64,000 nucleotides of DNA from Candidatus Poribacteria bacterium (lineage in GTDB: Bacteria; Poribacteria; WGA-4E; GCA-2687025): NCBI GenBank assembly GCA_963665845.2, contig OY762492.1, positions 2,368,001 through 2,432,000 of the forward strand, given 5' to 3'. Below, one piece after another: positions 1,059 through 44,099 of the stretch. The position numbers and the translations under genes were made by a program. Each line of letters starts with the position of its first letter. Position 1 is the stretch's first letter. The notes beneath the pieces are model-generated. The model did not search any database, had not been told where the DNA came from, and saw nothing but the letters and a program-made list of their open reading frames with translations.

Positions 1059-2343
1059 CGGCATGGGCTGGGCGTTGGCGGCGCTGTTGAGCGCGGGGCT
1101 GTATGCGGGAGCGGAGCAGGCGCCGCAGGCATGGTGGCTTTTTTTAAAGGAGCCGCCTAGCGCCTCGTTTCGTTCCGCGGCGGAGGCGGTCGGCGCGTCT
1201 GTCCGAACCGAAAGCCGATGGCTGCGCGCGGTGAGCGTCTCGGCGACCGAACGGCAGCGGGAGACGCTGGCGCGTTTGCCGGGCGTTTTGCGGACGGCGC
1301 CCGTCGCGTCCTATCGGCGCGTTGTTCAGTTTCCCGTGGATCCGACTCATCTCCCGACGCGGCATGCGCAGCCTGACTTGATGAACGCGGAGGCGTTGAT
1401 GGAGGCGGGCTGGACAGGCGAAGGCGTCCGCGTCGGCATCTTGGACGCCGGCTTTCGGCTGACGCATCCCGCCTTTGAGCGCCTGCGCGTCGGAGCCGTC
1501 ATGGATGTCATTCATCAAGACCAGAATGTGGACGAGGAGCCGGGTCAAGACGACCCTGGCGAAGCCGCCCATGGAACCGCCATGCTGTCGATTGTGGCGG
1601 GGCTGGCGCCGAACGCGGAATACTACTTAGCCAAAACGGAAGACATACAGCGCAACGGGCGCGATTTTGAGTCGCATATTGAAGAAGATTACTGGGTTGA
1701 GGGGCTGGAGTGGTGCATCGAAAACGGGTGCGCGGTCGTCAACTCGTCGCTCAACTACGCGCTGGATTACGCTTTTGCGGAGATGGACGGGCAGACCTCC
1801 CCCGCGTCGTTGGCGGCGGCGGAAGCGATGCGCCGCGGCGCGTTGATTGTGAATTCCGCCGGGAACATCAACCGCTACAACCCGTTTGGGCGCATCGCGC
1901 CGCCCGCCGATTCGGTCGGCGTCTTCACGGTCGGCGCGGCGCTTTCGAACGGGGAGCCTGCCGCATTTTCCTCAAAAGGACCGACGGGGGACGGGCGTCT
2001 CAAGCCGGACGCGCTCGCGCTGGGCGTCGGCGTCTCTGCCGCCGCGTTGGACGGGGAAGGGTTTCGGCTGGCGCGGGGTACCTCCGCGGCGTCCGCGTTG
2101 ACAGCGGGGGCTGCCGCGCTGTTGGTTGAAGCGTTTCCGTCCGCCTCTCCCGCCGAGATGATGAACGCGCTGCGCATGACCGCCTCAAACGCGGACGCGC
2201 CTGACAACCGAAGCGGATACGGCGTTTTGAACGCCGCGGAGGCGTATGAATATCTGCGCCGCGGGTTGAATCCAACCGATGCGGACGCGCCGAGCCGACC
2301 CGCCGCTGTTTTTCTCGCCGACCTGAAACGAGGCAGTTTATGA
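1051..2343 (+). CDS. Secreted S8 (subtilisin-like) serine peptidase
   Basis: Catalytic motifs VGILDAG, HGTAM, GTSAAS; VNSAGN oxyanion motif; hydrophobic signal peptide. Start is probably ATG 1051 or 1063 rather than 1003. Confidence 0.85.
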   Translation: MHNGMGWALAALLSAGLYAGAEQAPQAWWLFLKEPPSASFRSAAEAVGASVRTESRWLRAVSVSATERQRETLARLPGVLRTAPVASYRRVVQFPVDPTHLPTRHAQPDLMNAEALMEAGWTGEGVRVGILDAGFRLTHPAFERLRVGAVMDVIHQDQNVDEEPGQDDPGEAAHGTAMLSIVAGLAPNAEYYLAKTEDIQRNGRDFESHIEEDYWVEGLEWCIENGCAVVNSSLNYALDYAFAEMDGQTSPASLAAAEAMRRGALIVNSAGNINRYNPFGRIAPPADSVGVFTVGAALSNGEPAAFSSKGPTGDGRLKPDALALGVGVSAAALDGEGFRLARGTSAASALTAGAAALLVEAFPSASPAEMMNALRMTASNADAPDNRSGYGVLNAAEAYEYLRRGLNPTDADAPSRPAAVFLADLKRGSL

Positions 2344-3629
2344 AACGCATCGCCGCCGCATTGCTTCTTGCCGTTTTCGCCTCCGCCTGCGGAGATTCGC
2401 CGATTGATGAAGGATGGGAAGCGTATCGGCGGGAGGGACCTGAAAAGGCGCGCGAGGCGTTCCTCCGCCTAACGAAAGACCCGAAGAGAGCCGCCGACGC
2501 GGAGCTGGCGCTGGCGGAAATCGCCCTTGAACAGGACGAGCTGGAGGAGGCGAAAACCCGCTTTCAAAACGCCGCCGCAAAAAAAGAGCGGTTTGCGGAC
2601 GCATACGCCGGCTTGGGCGAGGCGCTGTACCGAATGGGTCGTCAAAAGGAGGCGTACGAGGTCTGGATACAGGCGCTGGAGCGGGAGCCTGACGGGTCGC
2701 ACACGGAGCGAATCGGCGCGATGACCGGCGGCGCGTACCATACAACCCGACTCACGCGAAACGGCGCCGACAGCTATTTCCCGCGCTTTCACCCTGACGG
2801 AAAAAGCGTCGTCTTCGCGTCGCACCAATATGAAAGCGGCGATCTTTACCTGCTCCGCTTGGAGGACATGGCGCTGGAGCGGCTGACCGAGATGGACGCC
2901 TCCAACGAAATCAGCCCCGTTTATTCGCCGGACGGCTCCGCGCTCATCTTTGCCGCGACGGAACATCGAACGGGCGTCGGCTACATCACGCTTCACGCCA
3001 GCGGCTCCTCCACGCGGCGCATTGTGCTGATGAAACGCGACTCTGCGGACGGCTCCGTCTCGCTTTTGACGCCGAACCCCAGCTCGGTCGCCAACCCTTA
3101 TCATCATCCGTCCGAGGCGCGCATCGCGTTTGAAGCGGCGGTGGAGGAGAATCTGGACATCTGGACGATGGACGTAGAGGGCGGGGGGCGGATTCGCCTG
3201 ACGACAGGTCCGGAAGACGACGGGTCGCCCGTCTACACGCCGGACGGAAGCTCCATTCTGTTTGTTCAAACGCAGGAGAACAATTTTGAGCTGATGCTCA
3301 TGAAGGCGGACGGGACGGAGCTTGAGCAGGCGACGCGGACGCCGTATAACGAGTTTGCGGGTTCGTTTTCGCCGGACGGGAGCCGGCTGGTTTATTTTCG
3401 GCAGCGCGATGCGTATGAGCTGGCGCTGATGGACTGGGAGACGCGGCGGTCGCGCGTGTTGTGCCGATTGAAAGGGGACGCGATGCAGCCGTCGTTTTCG
3501 CCGGACGGACAGCGCATCGTTTTTGTCAGCAACCAGAGCGACTACATGGAGCTGTATCTTCTGGATCTGTCGCAGCCTGTGCCGGGCGCGACGATATTGC
3601 GCCGTCTGCGTTCTCTGCTTGCATCATGA
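2340..3629 (+). CDS. Lipoprotein with TPR repeats and TolB-like PD40 beta-propeller
   Basis: Lipobox FASAC; TPR-like helices (AYAGLGEALYRMG); repeated PxFSPDG motifs; ATGA overlap with the upstream gene. Confidence 0.8.
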   Translation: MKRIAAALLLAVFASACGDSPIDEGWEAYRREGPEKAREAFLRLTKDPKRAADAELALAEIALEQDELEEAKTRFQNAAAKKERFADAYAGLGEALYRMGRQKEAYEVWIQALEREPDGSHTERIGAMTGGAYHTTRLTRNGADSYFPRFHPDGKSVVFASHQYESGDLYLLRLEDMALERLTEMDASNEISPVYSPDGSALIFAATEHRTGVGYITLHASGSSTRRIVLMKRDSADGSVSLLTPNPSSVANPYHHPSEARIAFEAAVEENLDIWTMDVEGGGRIRLTTGPEDDGSPVYTPDGSSILFVQTQENNFELMLMKADGTELEQATRTPYNEFAGSFSPDGSRLVYFRQRDAYELALMDWETRRSRVLCRLKGDAMQPSFSPDGQRIVFVSNQSDYMELYLLDLSQPVPGATILRRLRSLLAS

Positions 3630-3769
3630 GAGCCTTGGTTTTCAAAGCGGGTCGGCGTTCAGAATCGACTCCGCCGCCGTCGGTTAAAAAAGTTGAATGC
3701 GCAGCAAATCAATGGCATAGTAACGTCATCCGAGGGTTCAGAGATTTTAAATCCAGGCGTTGTAAGCGG

Positions 3770-3798
3770 TTGACATGCGTTTGGCGTCTTGGTATGGT
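3770..3798 (+). promoter_or_regulatory. Predicted sigma70 promoter P1 of the barrel-ExbBD operon
   Basis: TTGACA-17 bp-TATGGT with extended TG. Confidence 0.6.
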
Positions 3799-3872
3799 AT
3801 GTTGTTGCGGGCGGGGCGTTTTCGTTCCGCTAGGCAAGCGCGGCATGATTCAACGCGCAACGTGAAAAATGG

Positions 3873-3901
3873 TTGACATGCGCCGAGCGTTTTGTTATTG
3901 T
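3873..3901 (+). promoter_or_regulatory. Predicted sigma70 promoter P2 of the barrel-ExbBD operon
   Basis: TTGACA-17 bp-TATTGT with extended TG. Shares GGTTGACATGCG with P1. Confidence 0.6.
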
Positions 3902-4013
3902 AAACTTGGTTTGCGGAGGATGCGGGCGTTTCAACGCGTTGCTTGACGCAATCATGAAATTTTGAACGAGCGAGGATACGCTCTTGAGAATCAAAACTTT
4001 AAGGACAGAACTT

Positions 4014-7000
4014 ATGAGAAAGACCGCTAAAGCGGCGCTTCCATGCCTGGGTCGGTGGACATTGGCGGCGTCGCTTGCATTGATAGGATTGGGGCTGATC
4101 GGGTGCGGCACAACGCCGTTCTCCGAGCTAGGCCCGCAGGAGCCGCTGTTGCCGGCAATTGAGGGGGAGTCGAAGTTCTCCGACCGCTTTGAGCTGGAAG
4201 AAATTCCTCATTTTTTCCATGATCTGTTCGGAAAAGAGCTGCTGGAGGGGCATGAGGTTCATCACTACGGGGAAGTGAAGAAGTTCGACAACACAGGCAA
4301 CTTGAACCTCGGTTTCAGCGGACAGTGGGAGACGCTCCGATTTGTTGTGGAGCTGGACCGCGAGGTTCTGACGCATGACACCTTTAGGGGCAGGCACGCG
4401 GAAGCGGCGATCGGAGATCATCTCCGCATTCTGCCGGAGACGCTCTTTCCCGCCGGGTACATCATCCGGAAAACGGAATTTGACGGGCAGCGGTTCGACA
4501 TCTCGTTCTCTCATGAGCGTCATCTGTTCACGCTTCTCAACACGCGCATGTCCAACACCATCTACAATATCCCTCTTGGTTTCCAGACGCTCAACGGCGC
4601 CGCCGGTCGACGAACCTCCACCGAGGACGTTGCCTTTCTCGCCAACTCCAGAATCATCGGTTTCCGAGCGCAGGGGCTGATCGGGGACATCTTCCGCGTC
4701 GGCGCGACGTATATAAACGTGCGCCAGGAGTTTCATCAGCGGACGCACAACCCGCTCTTCGGCTCCGTGCCGAACACGCCGCCGCAGGTCATCGTTGTCA
4801 CTTTCCGCGACGACTCGCCTGAAGACGGGCGCGTCGGAGCCGCCTTCCAGTCGATGGATGTCGTCATACGGTACCGAGAGGAATTGTATGACGTCGAAGT
4901 CATCACGGAGGACCCGAACACGGGCGAACCGCTGGAAGAACCGGTTGTCATCCGCGCGCCGCAGGAGTCCGAGGAGCAGACGCTCACATGGCAGGTCTTC
5001 TCCGACGATATGCGGGACGGCAATCTGACGGGAGATGTGCTGAACGGCGGATCGCCCGACCCGACCGTGACGACGGAGCTTCCCAGTTCCGACCCGCGCA
5101 TTGTTCGCAATGTCGGCGCGGACAACGCCGATTATCCGTACCTGGGCGACTGGCGGGTTGCAAACGGGTTTGACGCTTTTCATTACGCGCTGGATTTGAC
5201 CAATCTGCCGGATGCGGCTGCCAACGAGCTGGGAAGCTCGCTTTTGAACCCGGCGGTTGTCATCAGCGTTGAGTTCCAGAATATCAAGGTGGCGGGCGAC
5301 TACAACATCGTCATGAGCGGATACAGCCCTGGCAACGTCGGCGATGAAGACGGCGATCAGTTGCTCAATATGAACGGAAGCGGTCTCATCGTGATGCCGT
5401 ATCGCGACGTGATACAGGCGCCTGGAAACGTCGGTCAGGAGCAGGGTCAAGACCTGGACGTGTCCGATCCGAACGGGTGGAATCCGAAAACGATCGCGTC
5501 GCTGCAGTACGGCGCGCCGCGCTCCGCTGTCTTGGCGGGCGTGGACCTTGAAGGGACGATCGGCAATGTGCTGATTCGGGCGCAGTATTCGGTCAACAAC
5601 AAATACAAAGCGTATCCGACCGTCGACGAAGAACGCATCGATATTCTTCTTCTGCCGCAGGATTCAGGGATATCGAACGCGACCGTCGGAGACGCCGCCG
5701 ACTTCAAATACGACGAGGCGTCGGAGGGGAGAACCTTTTCCGCCAACAACGGCGCGGAGTTCAAATTCACGCCCGGCGGCGACAACCATGACTCCGCCGA
5801 GGTCGCCTGGTTCATCCAGCTTGAACACCGGCTTGGACGCATCCTGTTCAAAGAAGCGTTCTACCACATCGACCCAGGCTACACGACCAACTACCAGGGC
5901 TGGGGAAACAATGTGGACCGCGACGAGGTGTACGGCAACAACCCAGGCCCGTGGCGCGAAGCGAAAGACGAACCTGGTCCAGGAACGGAAGGTCCGGGCG
6001 TGGCGGCGGGGAACGGCTTCAATGCGGACATCTACCGCTTCGTTGAAGACGACGACGACCGCGACAGCTTTCCCGACAGCATCGACTTTGACGGAGTCCT
6101 TCCGCAAGCGGACGACCGCGACCAGAACGGCATTCTGGACTATCAGGAAGATTTCCTCATCTTCGACGCCGACCCGCCCATCTTTGACGACCTGGTCGAC
6201 CATGATAACAACGGCATCATCGACTCTCTCGAAGACGACTATGAGCCGGATTATGAGTACGGGATCGACCGGCGCGGCTACCATATTGAGGTGGCGTGGG
6301 ACATTTTTGAGAACATGACGACCACTTTCGGCTGGCTGAACGAGTCGGAAGTGTCCAGCGCGCGGCGCAACAACTCGCGCTATCTCCACTTCGATTTTCA
6401 GCGCGACATTGCCGAGCTCGGCACTTTCCGCCTGCAAGACCGTCTCCGCGTTGTGGACGACGACATCCCCGACTACTCCATCGCGCTGATCCCTGGAGCG
6501 CTTGGGGAGGCGCAGATAGAGGACCAGTTGGACTTCTACAACGCGACGGAAAACACGACGACGCTGCAGTTCCTCTACAACGCGATCAACAACCTGACGC
6601 TTGAGGGCAAGTATCTCTTCACGCTTGGGCGCCAGTCGCCGCCGTCGGATGAACGGCTGATCTTCCCGGACGACCCGGACACGCCCGACATTGATGAGCG
6701 CATCGACCTGATGGTGCCGCAGACGCAGGTGGATGTCGGCGGCGGGCAGAGAGATTACCCGTTCTATCCGGACCCGAATCTGATTTTCGACATCGACAAC
6801 TGGCAGGGGCGTCGATACGGGATTCAGAGCTACTGGGATGAAGACGGCAACATCATCACTGAAGAGGGCAAGACCCTCAATCAGCAGCTGCTCATTTTCC
6901 GCGCGCAGTATGAGATTCCGCTCAAGGAGATTGGCGGTCTGCAGAGCATCGTTGAGAGCATCAGCGAAGACATCGTCATCACGCCGGTGTATAAGTACAT

Positions 7001-7478
7001 TCTTGAGCGGAGTTCGGACCGAAGCCGCGACAGCCTTTACATCTCCCGCTTCAATCTGGGCGAGTTTGACAAAGGTACGCGGTTCGCGCTGGACCCGATC
7101 AATGTCAACCCCGGCGACGCGGAGAGCCGAGAGTATCTGCGCTTCAACAAGAACAGCCGCGAAATCGTCGAGGGCGTCCGCTTCGACTATCAGTTCACGC
7201 AGCGGGCGGCGATCGTCGCCGGCTTCCAGTACCGCAAGTTCATCAACAAGGACAAGGATTACCAGCGGTATCTGTCGGTCATTCCGGACGGGCAATCGTC
7301 GGCTCCGATCGAGTACCGCCCCGATTCGCGGACTCGAATCTTTGAGCTGCAGTTGATTCAGGAAGGCGACTGGCAAGGTTTTGTTGTGGCGATCCTGTCG
7401 GGTTTCCGCATCTACAAGGATGTTCTCAACAATGTTGCGAGCAACAGCACCTACATTCGCGCGATGACCGGTTTCTAA
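4014..7478 (+). CDS. Large uncharacterised lipoprotein, probable outer-membrane beta-barrel with Asp-rich Ca2+-binding loops
   Basis: Signal peptide with lipobox LIGC; many amphipathic strand pairs; DxDxNGxxD motifs; C-terminal YIRAMTGF ending in Phe. Start ATG 4014 (the ORF track gives TTG 3984). Confidence 0.7.
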   Translation: MRKTAKAALPCLGRWTLAASLALIGLGLIGCGTTPFSELGPQEPLLPAIEGESKFSDRFELEEIPHFFHDLFGKELLEGHEVHHYGEVKKFDNTGNLNLGFSGQWETLRFVVELDREVLTHDTFRGRHAEAAIGDHLRILPETLFPAGYIIRKTEFDGQRFDISFSHERHLFTLLNTRMSNTIYNIPLGFQTLNGAAGRRTSTEDVAFLANSRIIGFRAQGLIGDIFRVGATYINVRQEFHQRTHNPLFGSVPNTPPQVIVVTFRDDSPEDGRVGAAFQSMDVVIRYREELYDVEVITEDPNTGEPLEEPVVIRAPQESEEQTLTWQVFSDDMRDGNLTGDVLNGGSPDPTVTTELPSSDPRIVRNVGADNADYPYLGDWRVANGFDAFHYALDLTNLPDAAANELGSSLLNPAVVISVEFQNIKVAGDYNIVMSGYSPGNVGDEDGDQLLNMNGSGLIVMPYRDVIQAPGNVGQEQGQDLDVSDPNGWNPKTIASLQYGAPRSAVLAGVDLEGTIGNVLIRAQYSVNNKYKAYPTVDEERIDILLLPQDSGISNATVGDAADFKYDEASEGRTFSANNGAEFKFTPGGDNHDSAEVAWFIQLEHRLGRILFKEAFYHIDPGYTTNYQGWGNNVDRDEVYGNNPGPWREAKDEPGPGTEGPGVAAGNGFNADIYRFVEDDDDRDSFPDSIDFDGVLPQADDRDQNGILDYQEDFLIFDADPPIFDDLVDHDNNGIIDSLEDDYEPDYEYGIDRRGYHIEVAWDIFENMTTTFGWLNESEVSSARRNNSRYLHFDFQRDIAELGTFRLQDRLRVVDDDIPDYSIALIPGALGEAQIEDQLDFYNATENTTTLQFLYNAINNLTLEGKYLFTLGRQSPPSDERLIFPDDPDTPDIDERIDLMVPQTQVDVGGGQRDYPFYPDPNLIFDIDNWQGRRYGIQSYWDEDGNIITEEGKTLNQQLLIFRAQYEIPLKEIGGLQSIVESISEDIVITPVYKYILERSSDRSRDSLYISRFNLGEFDKGTRFALDPINVNPGDAESREYLRFNKNSREIVEGVRFDYQFTQRAAIVAGFQYRKFINKDKDYQRYLSVIPDGQSSAPIEYRPDSRTRIFELQLIQEGDWQGFVVAILSGFRIYKDVLNNVASNSTYIRAMTGF

Positions 7479-7489
7479 ACAACGCTGAC

Positions 7490-7527
7490 AGCGGGAGGCG
7501 GTCCGCAGGGTCGGGCCGCCTCCCGCT
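7490..7527 (+). other. GC-rich intra-operon hairpin lacking a U-tract
   Basis: AGCGGGAGGCGG / CCGCCTCCCGCT perfect 12-bp inverted repeat just after the stop codon. Confidence 0.6.
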
Positions 7528-8117
7528 TGTCGCTTGAAGGCAGGCAATTGCGGAACGTTCTGATCATCATGATGCGCATATCGGCGGCGGCTCTATGGGT
7601 CGGCGCCGCCCATGCGCAGGTACAGACGTCGGCTCCAGCGGCGGCGCTGAGCGGCGTTGTGTTGAGTGTGAGAGACGGATCCGCGGTTGAAGGCGCGAAA
7701 ATGCATGCCGTTGCCGGCATCAAAGGCAGCGTCAAGGATGTAACGAAGGGAGGCGCGGCTGTCGAGGGCGCGACCGTCACGTACACGTACGTTGGGCTTC
7801 GCGCCGGTAAATCGGGCGAAGTCAAGAGCGACCAGAACGGCGAGTTTGAAATCTTTCCGCTTGCTCCCGGCGATTACTCTCTTAGCGTTGCGGCGGACAG
7901 GTATAAGGAACGCGATAACATCCTTCGCTCCGTCGTCTCTGGACAGACGACGGTCATCGAACTGAAAATGCGCAAAAAGACGACCATATTCCAGGCGCTA
8001 GGGAGGATGTACGGCGGGAATGGAGTTCTGGTCCTGCTGTTTTCCATTGCAGCGGTCGCTCTCATCTTTACGCTGACTGCGTCATGGCTCATACGAAAAG
8101 CGGAGAAGCAATCATGA
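7527..8117 (+). CDS. Membrane-anchored carboxypeptidase-regulatory-like (Ig/transthyretin-like fold) domain protein; truncated paralogue of the downstream ExbB N-terminus
   Basis: Signal peptide (AHA|Q), GIKGSVKD...GATV...SDQNGEFEI..LAPGDYSL motif, one C-terminal TM helix. Exact start uncertain. Confidence 0.7.
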   Translation: MSLEGRQLRNVLIIMMRISAAALWVGAAHAQVQTSAPAAALSGVVLSVRDGSAVEGAKMHAVAGIKGSVKDVTKGGAAVEGATVTYTYVGLRAGKSGEVKSDQNGEFEIFPLAPGDYSLSVAADRYKERDNILRSVVSGQTTVIELKMRKKTTIFQALGRMYGGNGVLVLLFSIAAVALIFTLTASWLIRKAEKQS

Positions 8118-8197
8118 ATCGATTTCTCAACAACAACGAAAACGCGGTTCGAGGATCGAACCGTTCAACCGTTTCAAACCTTATGGAGGCAAACCAA

Positions 8198-9250
8198 GTG
8201 CGTAAACTTCTTCCCGTCATCATGTCGGCGGCGCTGGCCATCTTCTGTCTCGGCGTTCAGGCGCAGGAAGCGACCGAGGATATCGGCGCCGACATGGGCA
8301 GCGAAATTGACATCGGCGGCGCCGGCCTGGACACGACCGTCAGCGAAACCGGCATCAAAGGCAGCATCAAGGATGTAACGCAGGGAGGCGCGGCAGTCAA
8401 CGGCGCGACCATCATGTATGTTGGGAACGACGTGACAGGCGAAGCCACGAGCGATCAGAACGGCGAGTTTGAAATCGGTCCGCTTGCCCCCGGCGAGTAC
8501 TCGCTCAAAGTGGTGGCGGACAATTTCCGGGACCGCGACGGCATCATTCGTACGGTCGTCGCCGGACAGATGACGATCATCGAAGTGAAAATGCGCGAAA
8601 AGACGACCCTGCTCGTGTTCGCAAGGCGGTTCGGATGGGTCGGCATTCCGCTGCTGCTCTGCTCCATCGCGGCGGTGACGTTCATCATTGAGCGCATCTT
8701 CACCTACGTGAAGCTGAACTCCGGCACCGAGGCGCTTCTTCACCGCGTGGATGAGGCGCTGGAGCATGACGATGTCAACGAAGCGCAGCAGGCGTGCGAT
8801 GAGGTGGGGACGCCGATTGCGAACGTTCTCAAGAGCGGATTGACCCGCTATAGCGCGGGGCTGGTGCGAAATGAGCCGCCGACAAAGAACGAGATACAGG
8901 AGATGATGCAGGAAGGCGCCGCCCGCGAGCTGCCCGAATTTGAGAACAACCTGACCTGGTTGTCGATGATTGCAGTGGTCTCTCCGCTGTTTGGGCTGCT
9001 GGGTACGGTGCTGGGGATGATCCGCGCGTTCACGGTGATCGCGTTGGAAGGCACAAACGACCCGAACCAGCTGGCTGACGGGATTTCGGTCGCTCTCTAC
9101 ACGACAGCGGCGGGTCTCTCGATTGCCGCTCCTGCGCTGGTGTTCTACGCGATTTTCGAAAACATCGTCAACAAGAACACCCTCCGCATTGAAGATGCGG
9201 CTTCGAATTTGGCAAACAAACTGACCGCATCCGACGCTGCGGCCAGCTAA
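8198..9250 (+). CDS. MotA/TolQ/ExbB proton channel protein with N-terminal periplasmic carboxypeptidase-regulatory-like domain
   Basis: SPLFGLLGTVLGMIRAF and GISVALYTTAAGL motifs. GTG start at 8198 after GGAGG gives a signal peptide (VQA|Q). Confidence 0.9.
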   Translation: MRKLLPVIMSAALAIFCLGVQAQEATEDIGADMGSEIDIGGAGLDTTVSETGIKGSIKDVTQGGAAVNGATIMYVGNDVTGEATSDQNGEFEIGPLAPGEYSLKVVADNFRDRDGIIRTVVAGQMTIIEVKMREKTTLLVFARRFGWVGIPLLLCSIAAVTFIIERIFTYVKLNSGTEALLHRVDEALEHDDVNEAQQACDEVGTPIANVLKSGLTRYSAGLVRNEPPTKNEIQEMMQEGAARELPEFENNLTWLSMIAVVSPLFGLLGTVLGMIRAFTVIALEGTNDPNQLADGISVALYTTAAGLSIAAPALVFYAIFENIVNKNTLRIEDAASNLANKLTASDAAAS

Positions 9251-9261
9251 ATCTTTTCATT

Positions 9262-9297
9262 TTGCGCGGCCGCCCTCATCATAAGGCGGCTGCGCAA
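9262..9297 (+). other. Intergenic hairpin between exbB and exbD
   Basis: TTGCGCGGCCGCC / GGCGGCTGCGCAA inverted repeat. Confidence 0.5.
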
Positions 9298-9320
9298 CCG
9301 CATTGAAAGGAGTCGCGGAC

Positions 9321-9767
9321 ATGTATGATGAAAATCAAACCCAAGCTACCGCCCGCAAATCGCGGCGGGAGCCTGCAGTGGACATGACGCCGATGATCGA
9401 TTGCGTGTTTCTGTTGATCATCTTTTTCATGCTGGCGACCACCTTCTCGCCGCTGCCTGGCATCCAGGTCAAACTGCCGCCCCCGTCCAATGCGCCGACG
9501 CCGCCGGAGCAGAAAAACTTCATCCTGGTGATATCGAACCCAGAAGGGGGCGCATCGGAAGGCATCATGCTACTGAACGATAGTGGAGTGAGCATGAGCG
9601 ACCTGTCGGTCAGCTTTATGGGCGGCACCGAGGAGCAAAAAGAGACGCTCATCATCCGCTCCGGACGGCGCGTGAAGCATGAGCAGATCGTGACCGTGAT
9701 GGACAAGGCGAAACGCGCCGGCATCAAAAAAATCGGATTTGCAATGGTTGCAAGCTCCTTATATTGA
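9321..9767 (+). CDS. exbD: Biopolymer transporter ExbD/TolR family
   Basis: MTPMIDCVFLLIIFFM TM motif with conserved Asp; C-terminal VMDKAKRAGIKKIGF. Confidence 0.9.
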   Translation: MYDENQTQATARKSRREPAVDMTPMIDCVFLLIIFFMLATTFSPLPGIQVKLPPPSNAPTPPEQKNFILVISNPEGGASEGIMLLNDSGVSMSDLSVSFMGGTEEQKETLIIRSGRRVKHEQIVTVMDKAKRAGIKKIGFAMVASSLY

Positions 9768-9820
9768 CAGGCGCGCCTCGTCCACCGCATCCAACAGCCC
9801 AACTTTGAAAGGGTTGCGCC

Positions 9821-10228
9821 GTGAGATTAAAAAAACCGAGGGAGAAACAGCCTCCCAAGCTGGTCATGGAGCCGCTGGTTGACTGCGTCTTCCTTCTGCT
9901 CATCTTCTTTATGGTGGCGAACATTCTGAAGCCCACCTTGCCGTTCACCGTTGAACTGCCGGATTCCAAGTCCCGCGAGGAGTATGTCCGCAAAAAGTTC
10001 AACGTGTACATCAACGCGAACGGGCAGATGTCCGTTGACGACCAGGCGATGCAGGACTATGACGCTCTGGAAAAATACCTGCTGACGCGCGCGAACGAAA
10101 TCGAGGTGCTGATGATCCACGCCGACAAGAACACGAAGCATGGAGATGTGATCGACGCGATGGAACGCGCCAAACGCGCCACGCTCGACAATATCGCCTT
10201 TGTGCTGTCGGACGAGGAGATCGAGTAG
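9821..10228 (+). CDS. exbD: Second ExbD/TolR family protein
   Basis: MEPLVDCVFLLLIFFM, VELP, IHADKNTKHGDVIDAM. Confidence 0.9.
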   Translation: MRLKKPREKQPPKLVMEPLVDCVFLLLIFFMVANILKPTLPFTVELPDSKSREEYVRKKFNVYINANGQMSVDDQAMQDYDALEKYLLTRANEIEVLMIHADKNTKHGDVIDAMERAKRATLDNIAFVLSDEEIE

Positions 10229-42965: not shown

Positions 42966-44099
42966 TTGATGATGCGCCGAAACGCAGAATTGTTCGCCGT
43001 TTGCGCGGTTGCCGCTGCGCTGCTGTTGGCGGGAGCTTCGCGCGCTTCCGCAGTCGGCGCGCTGCCGACGCCGAGAGAGGATGTGACGAAGCTGGAAAAG
43101 CCAACCATCAGCTACAACTCGTATGACGACTACGAGATTCGTCTCATGAACTGGGACGGGACAAACGACCGACTCTGGTTAAGCAATGGAAAGATCAGGT
43201 TCACTCCTCTGGAATGGTCGCCAAACGGCAAGCGCGCCGGGGTGATCACGTTCGACAAGAGGGGATACACGCCTTATGTGATTGATCTGAAAACCGGCCA
43301 ATCTAAAAATCTGATCGACTTGGGCATTCCCGAACCGAAGGGATCATATCGGTGCCTCGATTGGTCGCCCGACGGAAACTGGATGACGCTGGTCAACACC
43401 TGGTATGTTACCAACATCATCGTTCACGGGTTCATCTGCAAAGTGAACGTCGTGAACGGTAAATATGTCCGTCTGACAAAAAATCCGTGGATGCATCCAG
43501 ACAAACCGACATGGTCTCCGGACGGTAAAAGGATTGCGTTCAACGGTTTAAAAGAGCCTAGAATAGAAGGGGTTCCCGCCAACAGCGAAATTTTTGTGAT
43601 GAACGCCGAAGGGTCCAACCTGACGAACCTTACCGACCATCCGGCATGGGAAGAGTATCCAACCTGGTCTCCGGACGGGAAGAAGATCGTCTTTCGCGGC
43701 TACCGCGACAATCAGGAGATTGAGGTACGTCGTCCGGTGGGGCGGGGGGAGCTGTATATGATCGACCTGGAGAGCAGAGATGTGGAGCGGCTGACCTTCA
43801 ACACAGGCTGGGAAGGCTCAGTTTCTTGGTCTCCCGATTCCCGATGGATTGTGTATCGGGCGGGTCCTGTCGGTCCGGGTCCTGACGATAAGACTCCAGA
43901 GGGCGTTTACCGCATGCATCTCCCGACGAGGGAGGTTGTTCTCGTGCGGGAGATGGAGATACGCGATCCGAGATGGGTCTTGGCGGGCAAGAGCCGCTTC
44001 CTCTCCGTTGACCTTGCGGGTAAAAAAAAAGCCCAGTGGGGAGCGGTGAAAAAAGCGGACAGCAGCCCGAATAGTCCAACTTCGCAGGACGGCGAATGA
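42966..44099 (+). CDS. Secreted TolB-like PD40 beta-propeller protein with C-terminal SVD..GK....WG..K tail
   Basis: Signal peptide; repeated WSPDG/WSPNG; tail LSVDLAGKKKAQWGAVKK. Confidence 0.85.
   Translation: MMMRRNAELFAVCAVAAALLLAGASRASAVGALPTPREDVTKLEKPTISYNSYDDYEIRLMNWDGTNDRLWLSNGKIRFTPLEWSPNGKRAGVITFDKRGYTPYVIDLKTGQSKNLIDLGIPEPKGSYRCLDWSPDGNWMTLVNTWYVTNIIVHGFICKVNVVNGKYVRLTKNPWMHPDKPTWSPDGKRIAFNGLKEPRIEGVPANSEIFVMNAEGSNLTNLTDHPAWEEYPTWSPDGKKIVFRGYRDNQEIEVRRPVGRGELYMIDLESRDVERLTFNTGWEGSVSWSPDSRWIVYRAGPVGPGPDDKTPEGVYRMHLPTREVVLVREMEIRDPRWVLAGKSRFLSVDLAGKKKAQWGAVKKADSSPNSPTSQDGE

What the first reader, a model, noticed from the sequence alone, without database searches (positions are those of the whole stretch)
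3770..10228. Candidate undescribed PMF-driven envelope machine: giant lipidated Ca2+-binding barrel plus Ig-fused ExbB and two ExbD, with no TonB
Seen: five co-oriented genes behind two tandem predicted promoters. They encode a 1154-aa protein with a lipobox, a membrane-anchored Ig-like protein, an ExbB/TolQ with a signal peptide and periplasmic Ig-like domain, and two different ExbD proteins. No Pro-rich TonB/TolA, TolB, Pal or recognisable TonB-dependent receptor lies inside the operon. Established: ExbBD/TolQR/MotAB-type motors energise outer-membrane processes through a transducer. Inference: the periplasmic domain fused to ExbB may couple directly to the large barrel, forming a lineage-specific import or secretion apparatus. 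One speculative cargo class is proteins with the C-terminal sorting-like tail seen at ~44000.
Basis: partly seen in the sequence, partly recalled or inferred. Interest (0 to 1): 0.85.

Follow-up and report, generated by a model that had tools for sequence, protein, structure and literature searches.

The report
Proton motor paired with unknown barrel
In sponge-symbiont Poribacteria and in Latescibacterota, genes for a proton-driven ExbB-ExbD-ExbD motor sit beside an unclassified, predicted large outer-membrane barrel, and they likely form an undescribed envelope machine that may export or display surface proteins.

Summary
The five genes are real; the organism is a Poribacterium. The 1154-aa protein matches no Pfam/NCBIfam family and is predicted as a 24-26-strand outer-membrane barrel without a TonB-receptor plug; Deinococcus SlpA is the nearest solved fold, only weakly. 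The Ig-fused ExbB follows it directly in 98 of 101 Poribacteria. Homologous barrels in Latescibacterota lie within 35 kb of an exbB in 28 of 37 loci (2.2 expected), although 12 of 12 genomes checked there have a separate exbB-tonB operon. A long, likely membrane-anchored TPR protein and type IX-type (FlgD/CTD) proteins travel with them. Gene 2 is a genus-level partial duplicate of exbB. The Ig domain and lipobox are absent from the Latescibacterota versions. The motor genes were noted before (Kamke 2014, Jahn 2016) as a Ton system; the barrel was 'hypothetical'. Best reading: a motor-TPR-barrel machine handling surface proteins beside a divergent SprA, in genomes where GldM was not found. Cargo and direction are untested.

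The parts
3770..3798 (+). Predicted extended sigma-70 promoter 1 (TTGACA-17-TATGGT)
   Evidence: RNA-library contigs of relatives begin at 3740-3815 in two studies, a weak hint only
3873..3901 (+). Predicted extended sigma-70 promoter 2 (TTGACA-17-TATTGT)
4014..7478 (+). 1154-aa predicted lipidated outer-membrane beta-barrel, 24-26 strands, with an inserted beta-sandwich (about 255-500) and an acidic, putative Ca2+-binding loop (about 670-750), both inferred to face outward; no receptor-type plug
   Evidence: AlphaFold2 pLDDT 81.7, pTM 0.82; fold searches; no family hit; lipobox
7527..8117 (+). Signal peptide + CarboxypepD_reg Ig-like domain + C-terminal membrane helix; partial duplicate of the exbB 5' half, seen next to the barrel only in this genus
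   Evidence: 48% identity to ExbB residues 23-194; absent from the other loci viewed
8114..9250 (+). ExbB/TolQ-type motor subunit with signal peptide, acidic linker and periplasmic Ig-like domain (ATG overlapping the stop of gene 2; longest ORF starts 8084)
   Evidence: channel threonines of the GLLGT and LxTTA motifs invariant in 15 of 15
9321..9767 (+). ExbD paralogue 1 with the transmembrane Asp
   Evidence: Asp in 20 of 20
9821..10228 (+). ExbD paralogue 2 with the transmembrane Asp
   Evidence: Asp in 19 of 19

Best explanation
The operon encodes an ExbB-ExbD-ExbD' proton motor and a predicted 24-26-strand outer-membrane barrel that likely work together, probably bridged by a long, likely membrane-anchored TPR protein, to export or display type IX-type surface proteins alongside a divergent SprA. 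Shown: gene content, motor residues, conserved linkage, co-occurrence with TPR and FlgD/CTD genes. Predicted: the barrel fold. Inferred: a 5:1:1 motor with an ExbD heterodimer; the TPR solenoid (here C1:866117-870922, outside the window; between barrel and exbB in the other class and in Latescibacterota) as the periplasm-spanning link; the cargo class and direction. In Poribacteria the same motor very likely also drives the orphan TonB proteins. Odds: about 0.7 that motor and barrel form a dedicated machine, about 0.55 of that for the surface-protein role.
For: Barrel then Ig-ExbB, same strand, in 98 of 101 Poribacteria; two ExbD follow in the loci viewed. In G006 a 1478-aa N-anchored TPR gene lies between barrel and exbB, and G002 has its start there; its orthologue is in 99 of 101 genomes. 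Latescibacterota homologues (hhalign 99%, E 2e-18): exbB within 35 kb in 28 of 37 chromosome-level loci, 2.2 expected; direct barrel-TPR-exbB-exbD order in L155, L166 and, by tree and gene position, L162/L163; 12 of 12 of these genomes keep a separate exbB-tonB operon, so the cassette motors are extra. Of 56 loci with full flanks, 56 have a FlgD/CTD-type gene upstream, 43 the anchored TPR, 46 three tandem barrels. Second barrel copies in Poribacteria have a CTD gene as direct neighbour in 5 of 6 loci viewed; one Elusimicrobiota locus has two FlgD-type genes upstream. SprA-like gene in 101 of 101, 12 PorV-family matches and 55 CTD hits in this genome; GldM not found in 41 genomes, GldL and GldM not in this one.
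Against: No physical interaction was tested. SprA itself is the obvious translocon for CTD proteins and is never near the operon in the loci viewed. The GldL/GldM searches had no positive control. CTD and tail genes are abundant in these genomes, and related loci are not independent. TPR gene and barrel are unlinked in most Poribacteria. G004 (91% complete, 450 contigs) has SprA and 109 tail matches but no full-length barrel, Ig-ExbB or TPR. The 778-aa paralogue and the second full-length copies have no exbBD nearby, and 9 of 37 Latescibacterota loci lacked a listed exbB. The ExbB tree does not resolve Poribacteria and Latescibacterota cassette ExbBs as sisters (quick tree). Jahn 2016 reports zero read coverage flanking the three motor genes, so the barrel may be transcribed separately there (passage).
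Confidence: 0.38

Rival explanations
1. Same motor-TPR-barrel machine, but an importer: type IX-exported CTD proteins act as surface binding partners (SusD-like logic) and the barrel takes up glycans or other large solutes, opened by the motor through the TPR or an AgmX/GltG-like TonB_C lipoprotein.
For: ExbBD motors usually energise uptake (established knowledge). Up to five cassettes per Latescibacterota genome suggest substrate-specific copies. The ~700-aa neighbour has an F5/8 carbohydrate-binding-type domain plus FlgD; CBM9 and apparent sulfatase and permease genes flank several cassettes (the latter named from sequence look only). Some cassettes encode an AgmX/PglI-type TonB_C lipoprotein (63 bits, cut-off 40). 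Jahn 2016 proposed B12 uptake for this motor.
Against: No plug domain: only about 35-45 residues between Cys31 and the first strands. These genomes already hold canonical receptors and TonB. Poribacteria mostly keep one motor-linked copy with no catabolic neighbours. No AgmX-like match in this genome.
Confidence: 0.27
2. The motor is simply the cell's general Ton motor for orphan TonBs; the barrel is an abundant co-located envelope protein with no mechanical link.
For: TonB_C in 101 of 101 genomes, 1-7 copies; exactly two ExbD matches in 71 of 101 (not each checked to be the operon pair); three TonB and about ten receptors here. Two ExbDs also occur in ordinary exbB-exbD-exbD-tonB operons (L154). 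Serratia ExbB uses its periplasmic extension to bind a TonB paralogue (PMC9008036).
Against: Does not explain why Latescibacterota keep extra exbB-exbD-exbD sets inside barrel cassettes (28 of 37) while having a separate Ton operon (12 of 12), nor the shared barrel-TPR-exbB order in two phyla.
Confidence: 0.17
3. An envelope-tethering or Tol-like maintenance machine: an SlpA/OmpM-like structural barrel, possibly trimeric, whose link to the cell wall or inner membrane is remodelled by the motor.
For: SlpA is the top fold match in three searches (E 2e-9 and 3.5e-12; Z 15.8, rmsd 8.6 over 406 residues); four small paralogues hit SlpA_C at E 1e-7 to 2e-6, under the cut-off. Near-universal, lipidated, with Wzz- and Wza-like genes upstream in many loci. 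Three tandem paralogues would fit a heterotrimer.
Against: TM-scores are 0.15-0.17 and porins and ushers follow within 2.5 Z units. No SLH domain or coiled-coil stalk. Multiple cassettes per genome with CTD genes are odd for a housekeeping tether.
Confidence: 0.13
4. One reading: the ExbB Ig domain contacts the barrel directly and WGxxK-tail proteins are the cargo.
For: Ig fusion is conserved in Poribacteria. The tail is a true C-terminal signal-like motif (101 versus 0 internal) and also occurs in Latescibacterota.
Against: Cassette ExbBs in Latescibacterota lack the Ig domain; the domain directly precedes TM1 and the barrel has no long periplasmic part; G004 has many tails without the full-length barrel (incomplete genome).
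Confidence: 0.05

Closest known systems
Ton system (ExbB-ExbD-TonB with TonB-dependent transporters); long ExbB of Serratia marcescens (PMC9008036)
   Same: ExbB and ExbD families with intact channel residues; signal peptide and periplasmic N-terminal extension on ExbB; TonB genes elsewhere in the genome
   Different: Extension is a folded CarboxypepD_reg domain; linked outer-membrane protein is not a plugged 22-strand receptor; no tonB in the operon; anchored TPR partner
Myxococcus Agl-Glt gliding machine (PMC11761067)
   Same: One TolQ-like plus two TolR-like subunits (predicted AglR5QS heterodimer plug); TPR proteins; GltG-like TonB_C domain in some Latescibacterota cassettes; three outer-membrane barrels in those cassettes
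   Different: Barrels here are 780-1150 aa and match no Glt family in NCBIfam; no GltG-like gene in this operon; no evidence for motility
Type IX secretion system (SprA, PorV, GldLM motor)
   Same: Genome has SprA-like, PorV-family, PorU-like and CTD proteins; CTD genes flank barrel homologues
   Different: This barrel is not SprA; GldL/GldM not found; the motor is of the ExbBD class
Deinococcus SlpA / OmpM barrels
   Same: Nearest solved fold, collinear over the barrel; weak SlpA_C hits in paralogues; acidic loops
   Different: TM-score under 0.2; fewer strands than the 30 recalled for SlpA; no SLH domain; genetic link to a motor
Poribacterial 'BMC-A region' (Kamke 2014 PMC3909097; Jahn 2016 PMC5087111)
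   Same: Same ExbB (CarboxypepD_reg + MotA_ExbB) and two ExbD genes, highly transcribed, ExbD located at the membrane
   Different: The adjacent gene was 'hypothetical protein' (my match by gene order in Table S2); the motor was read as a Ton system for B12; BMC/PduL genes are not beside the operon in this genome

Membership tests
TonB-dependent transporter | N-terminal plug domain of about 150 residues before the barrel | tested here: not met
   No Plug or receptor Pfam/NCBIfam hit; strands begin at residue 66-75, about 35-45 residues after Cys31
TonB-dependent transporter | 22-strand barrel | tested here: not met
Ton motor (ExbB-ExbD-TonB) | ExbB channel threonines and ExbD transmembrane aspartate | tested here: met
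   15/15, 20/20, 19/19; residue roles recalled from E. coli work
Ton motor (ExbB-ExbD-TonB) | A TonB partner available | tested here: met
   3 TonB_C genes elsewhere in the genome, none in the operon; pairing untested
Tol-Pal | tolA, tolB, pal with tolQR | tested here: not met
   None inside the operon or seen in related loci; genome-wide Pal/TolA search not done
Agl-Glt | TolQ-like plus two TolR-like subunits | tested here: met
Agl-Glt | GltG/GltJ transducer and GltA/B/C/D/E/F/H orthologues | tested here: inconclusive
   AgmX/GltG-like C-terminal domain in some Latescibacterota cassettes, far under the GltG cut-off; none on the five genes; no genome-wide Glt search
Type IX secretion system | SprA translocon | tested here: inconclusive
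   Separate 2205-aa gene, TIGR04189 181.7 bits against cut-off 200, SprA_N over cut-off; matches in 101 of 101; the operon barrel is not SprA
Type IX secretion system | PorV-family proteins and CTD substrates | tested here: met
   5 PorV_fam matches over cut-off of 12; 55 CTD-profile hits
Type IX secretion system | GldL/GldM motor and GldK/N ring | tested here: inconclusive
   GldL, GldM not found but no positive control rang; GldK/N not searched
SlpA/OmpM | N-terminal SLH domain and coiled-coil stalk | tested here: not met
   No SLH hit; no stalk in the model
SlpA/OmpM | SlpA-type barrel and trimer | tested here: inconclusive
   Top fold match but TM 0.17, rmsd 8.6; SlpA_C under cut-off; trimer too large to model

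The most novel reading that the evidence does not exclude
A previously unrecognised class of proton-driven envelope machine in Poribacteria, Latescibacterota and scattered other phyla: an ExbB-ExbD-ExbD' motor works through an anchored TPR solenoid instead of TonB on a new large-barrel family, and replaces GldLM as the energiser of a divergent type IX-like export route for CTD and WGxxK-tail proteins.
Probability: 0.25. Interest if true: 0.9.

Novelty: new variant of a known kind. Interest (0 to 1): 0.72.

Why it matters
5:2 proton motors power few known jobs (uptake, Tol-Pal, flagella, gliding, type IX export, Zorya). A conserved pairing with an unnamed barrel family (891 clusters at 50% identity) points to another. 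It bears on an open question stated by Kamke 2014: Poribacteria encode many proteins with type IX-like sorting tails but no secretion pathway was found. This work names testable parts in dominant sponge symbionts: SprA-like translocon, PorV family, this motor, the TPR link and the barrel. [quoted passage not shown]

Tried and rejected
Sequence search of solved structures with the 55-row profile: no match at E up to 1. First AlphaFold model (55 rows, pLDDT 65) left the N-terminal strands unresolved; its wide structural search gave only generic barrels, Z up to 13.1. A wide search with the better model could not be run (queue). Complex prediction of barrel with the TPR C-terminus was not available, so no binding claim is tested. 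ESM Atlas: recognition score below its threshold, hits used only as a lead to Latescibacterota. I first guessed the barrel was the 'RhoGEF COG5422' gene of Jahn 2016; Table S2 gene order shows that is another gene. An apparent TonB gene near second barrel copies is 9-17 kb away and unrelated in context. ExbB tree: careful search unfinished, deep nodes open. RNA-library contigs cover the operon in relatives but cannot show starts, strand or level. Metagenome scan gave one locus, cut at the barrel's end, so motor linkage outside the two phyla is unknown. Taxa of distant homologues: only 2 of 20 looked up carried a phylum name. Literature searches found no paper describing the barrel family or the cassette; the library lacks most subscription papers, and Jahn's figures and supplements were not seen.
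Full report
Observation. Homologues named in databases are all Candidatus Poribacteria hypothetical proteins. The genome is 3.98 Mb, 90% complete.

The large protein. It has no Pfam, NCBIfam or PDB sequence match. With a 149-row alignment AlphaFold2 gave pLDDT 81.7 and pTM 0.82. From the secondary-structure listing I count 25 long strands plus a short one at 66-69 as barrel, so 24 or 26 strands; I could not inspect coordinates. Counting back from the C-terminal Phe places the inserted beta-sandwich (about 255-500) and the acidic loop (about 670-750, three calcium-type motifs) outside the cell; this is inference. Only about 35-45 residues separate the lipobox Cys from the first strands, leaving no room for a receptor plug. 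Fold searches rank Deinococcus SlpA first (E 3.5e-12, TM 0.17; Z 15.8, rmsd 8.6, 406 aligned), then porins and ushers. So it is a large barrel of no assignable family. The lipobox pattern is in 115 of 120 Poribacteria long forms, 5 of 41 short paralogues and 3 of 55 Latescibacterota forms.

The motor. ExbB keeps both channel threonine motifs and each ExbD keeps its aspartate. Gene 2 is 48% identical to the ExbB N-terminal half and sits beside the barrel only in this genus, so the core is four genes.

Linkage in Poribacteria. All 101 genomes searched match the barrel, 100 strongly. The Ig-ExbB match follows within 104-1158 bases on the same strand in 98 of 101. In G006 a 1478-aa TPR protein with an N-terminal hydrophobic anchor lies between them; G002's contig ends in that gene; G004 has only short paralogues. 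The TPR orthologue is in 99 of 101 genomes, here at C1:866117-870922.

TonB is not missing from the cell. This genome has three TonB_C genes and 11 receptor-barrel matches in about ten genes, but only this ExbD pair plus one fused ExbD domain and one orphan exbB. TonB_C is in 101 of 101 genomes and 71 of 101 have exactly two ExbD matches. In Poribacteria the motor therefore very likely serves TonB as well.

A second phylum separates the two readings. A distant hit is homologous (hhalign 99%) and defines a Latescibacterota family (best 80 of 225 loci kept). Of 56 loci with full 8-kb flanks, 46 have three tandem barrels, 43 the anchored TPR and 56 a FlgD/CTD-type gene upstream. An exbB lies within 35 kb in 28 of 37 chromosome-level loci against 2.2 by chance (only 150 of 203 exbB matches were listed, and the genomes are related). 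Most of the loci read show exbB-exbD-exbD with DUF4159, DUF5683 and small lipoproteins; some add an AgmX/GltG-like TonB_C lipoprotein. Several show barrel-TPR-exbB-exbD directly, the order seen in G006. All 12 genomes checked also have an ordinary exbB-tonB operon, so the cassette motors are additional. Their ExbBs have no Ig domain. The family has 891 representatives at 50% identity, including one Spirochaetota and one Elusimicrobiota name; the latter locus has FlgD-type genes upstream and ends at the barrel.

Type IX-like background. A 2205-aa SprA-like gene (181.7 bits, cut-off 200) lies elsewhere and is matched in 101 of 101 genomes. PorV-family and CTD genes are plentiful. GldM was not found in 41 genomes, nor GldL here, without a positive control. 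The WGxxK tail ends 101 ORFs and never occurs internally, but G004 has 109 tail matches without the long barrel.

Mechanism. Most likely the motor turns proton flow into force passed across the periplasm by the anchored TPR solenoid to the barrel, and the job concerns CTD-type surface proteins; import with those proteins as surface binders is the close rival. No interaction was tested.

Prior work. Kamke 2014 (passages and Table S2) lists these motor genes with a hypothetical neighbour and notes sorting tails without a known pathway. Jahn 2016 (passages) shows high transcription and membrane location and proposes B12 uptake. PMC9008036 and PMC11761067 (passages) give the precedents for extended ExbB and for an ExbD-type heterodimer. 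A 2026 preprint (passages) detects Poribacteria SprA and ExbB proteins. Five searches found no description of the barrel family or cassette.

Verdict. Real, conserved and under-described: a new variant among 5:2-motor envelope machines, function not yet fixed. Interest 0.72.

Noticed in passing
window 42966-44099; about 100 further genes in G000: C-terminal VxPxGKxxxxWGxLK-type tail, 101 ORFs by strict pattern and none internal; also in other Poribacteria and Latescibacterota. No NCBIfam or Pfam model hit it on the window protein. A candidate unnamed sorting signal.
   Followed up: partly
G000 C1:935094-941711 (L038): 2205-aa SprA-like gene just upstream of the rsmH-ftsI-mur cell-wall cluster; matched in 101 of 101 Poribacteria although earlier work found no type IX genes.
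   Followed up: partly
G000 C1:1507000-1509336 (L039): 778-aa non-lipidated paralogue of the barrel near a PorV-like gene, with an apparent DNA methylase gene inserted between them.
   Followed up: partly
G000 C1:1858843-1865773: 1976-aa protein resembling a PorU/gingipain-type sortase with CTD, followed by a PorV-family gene (named from sequence look).
   Followed up: no
L169, L170, L171, L023; orphan at G000 C1:2619042-2619797: A second Poribacteria operon: TPR, 550-650-aa barrel-like gene, ExbB, TonB-like gene, with no ExbD; it would have to borrow ExbD from the operon studied here.
   Followed up: partly
G000 C1:1316798-1326741: Three tandem pairs of MotA-like and OmpA/MotB-like genes with HNH-like neighbours, resembling Zorya defence systems; not scanned against PADLOC.
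   Followed up: no
G000 C1:3385132-3386784 (L044): 550-aa protein with a C-terminal ExbD domain, downstream of an apparent ECF sigma and anti-sigma pair.
   Followed up: no
window 2340-3629: TPR plus TolB-like PD40 propeller lipoprotein directly upstream of the promoters; adjacent to the barrel only in this genus.
   Followed up: partly
L022, L028, L031-L033: Conserved upstream block in other Poribacteria (DUF5683, small lipoprotein, Wza-like, Wzz-like) is scattered in G000 (C1:1879522-1881490, 850794, 2043154); DUF5683 also occurs in Latescibacterota cassettes.
   Followed up: partly
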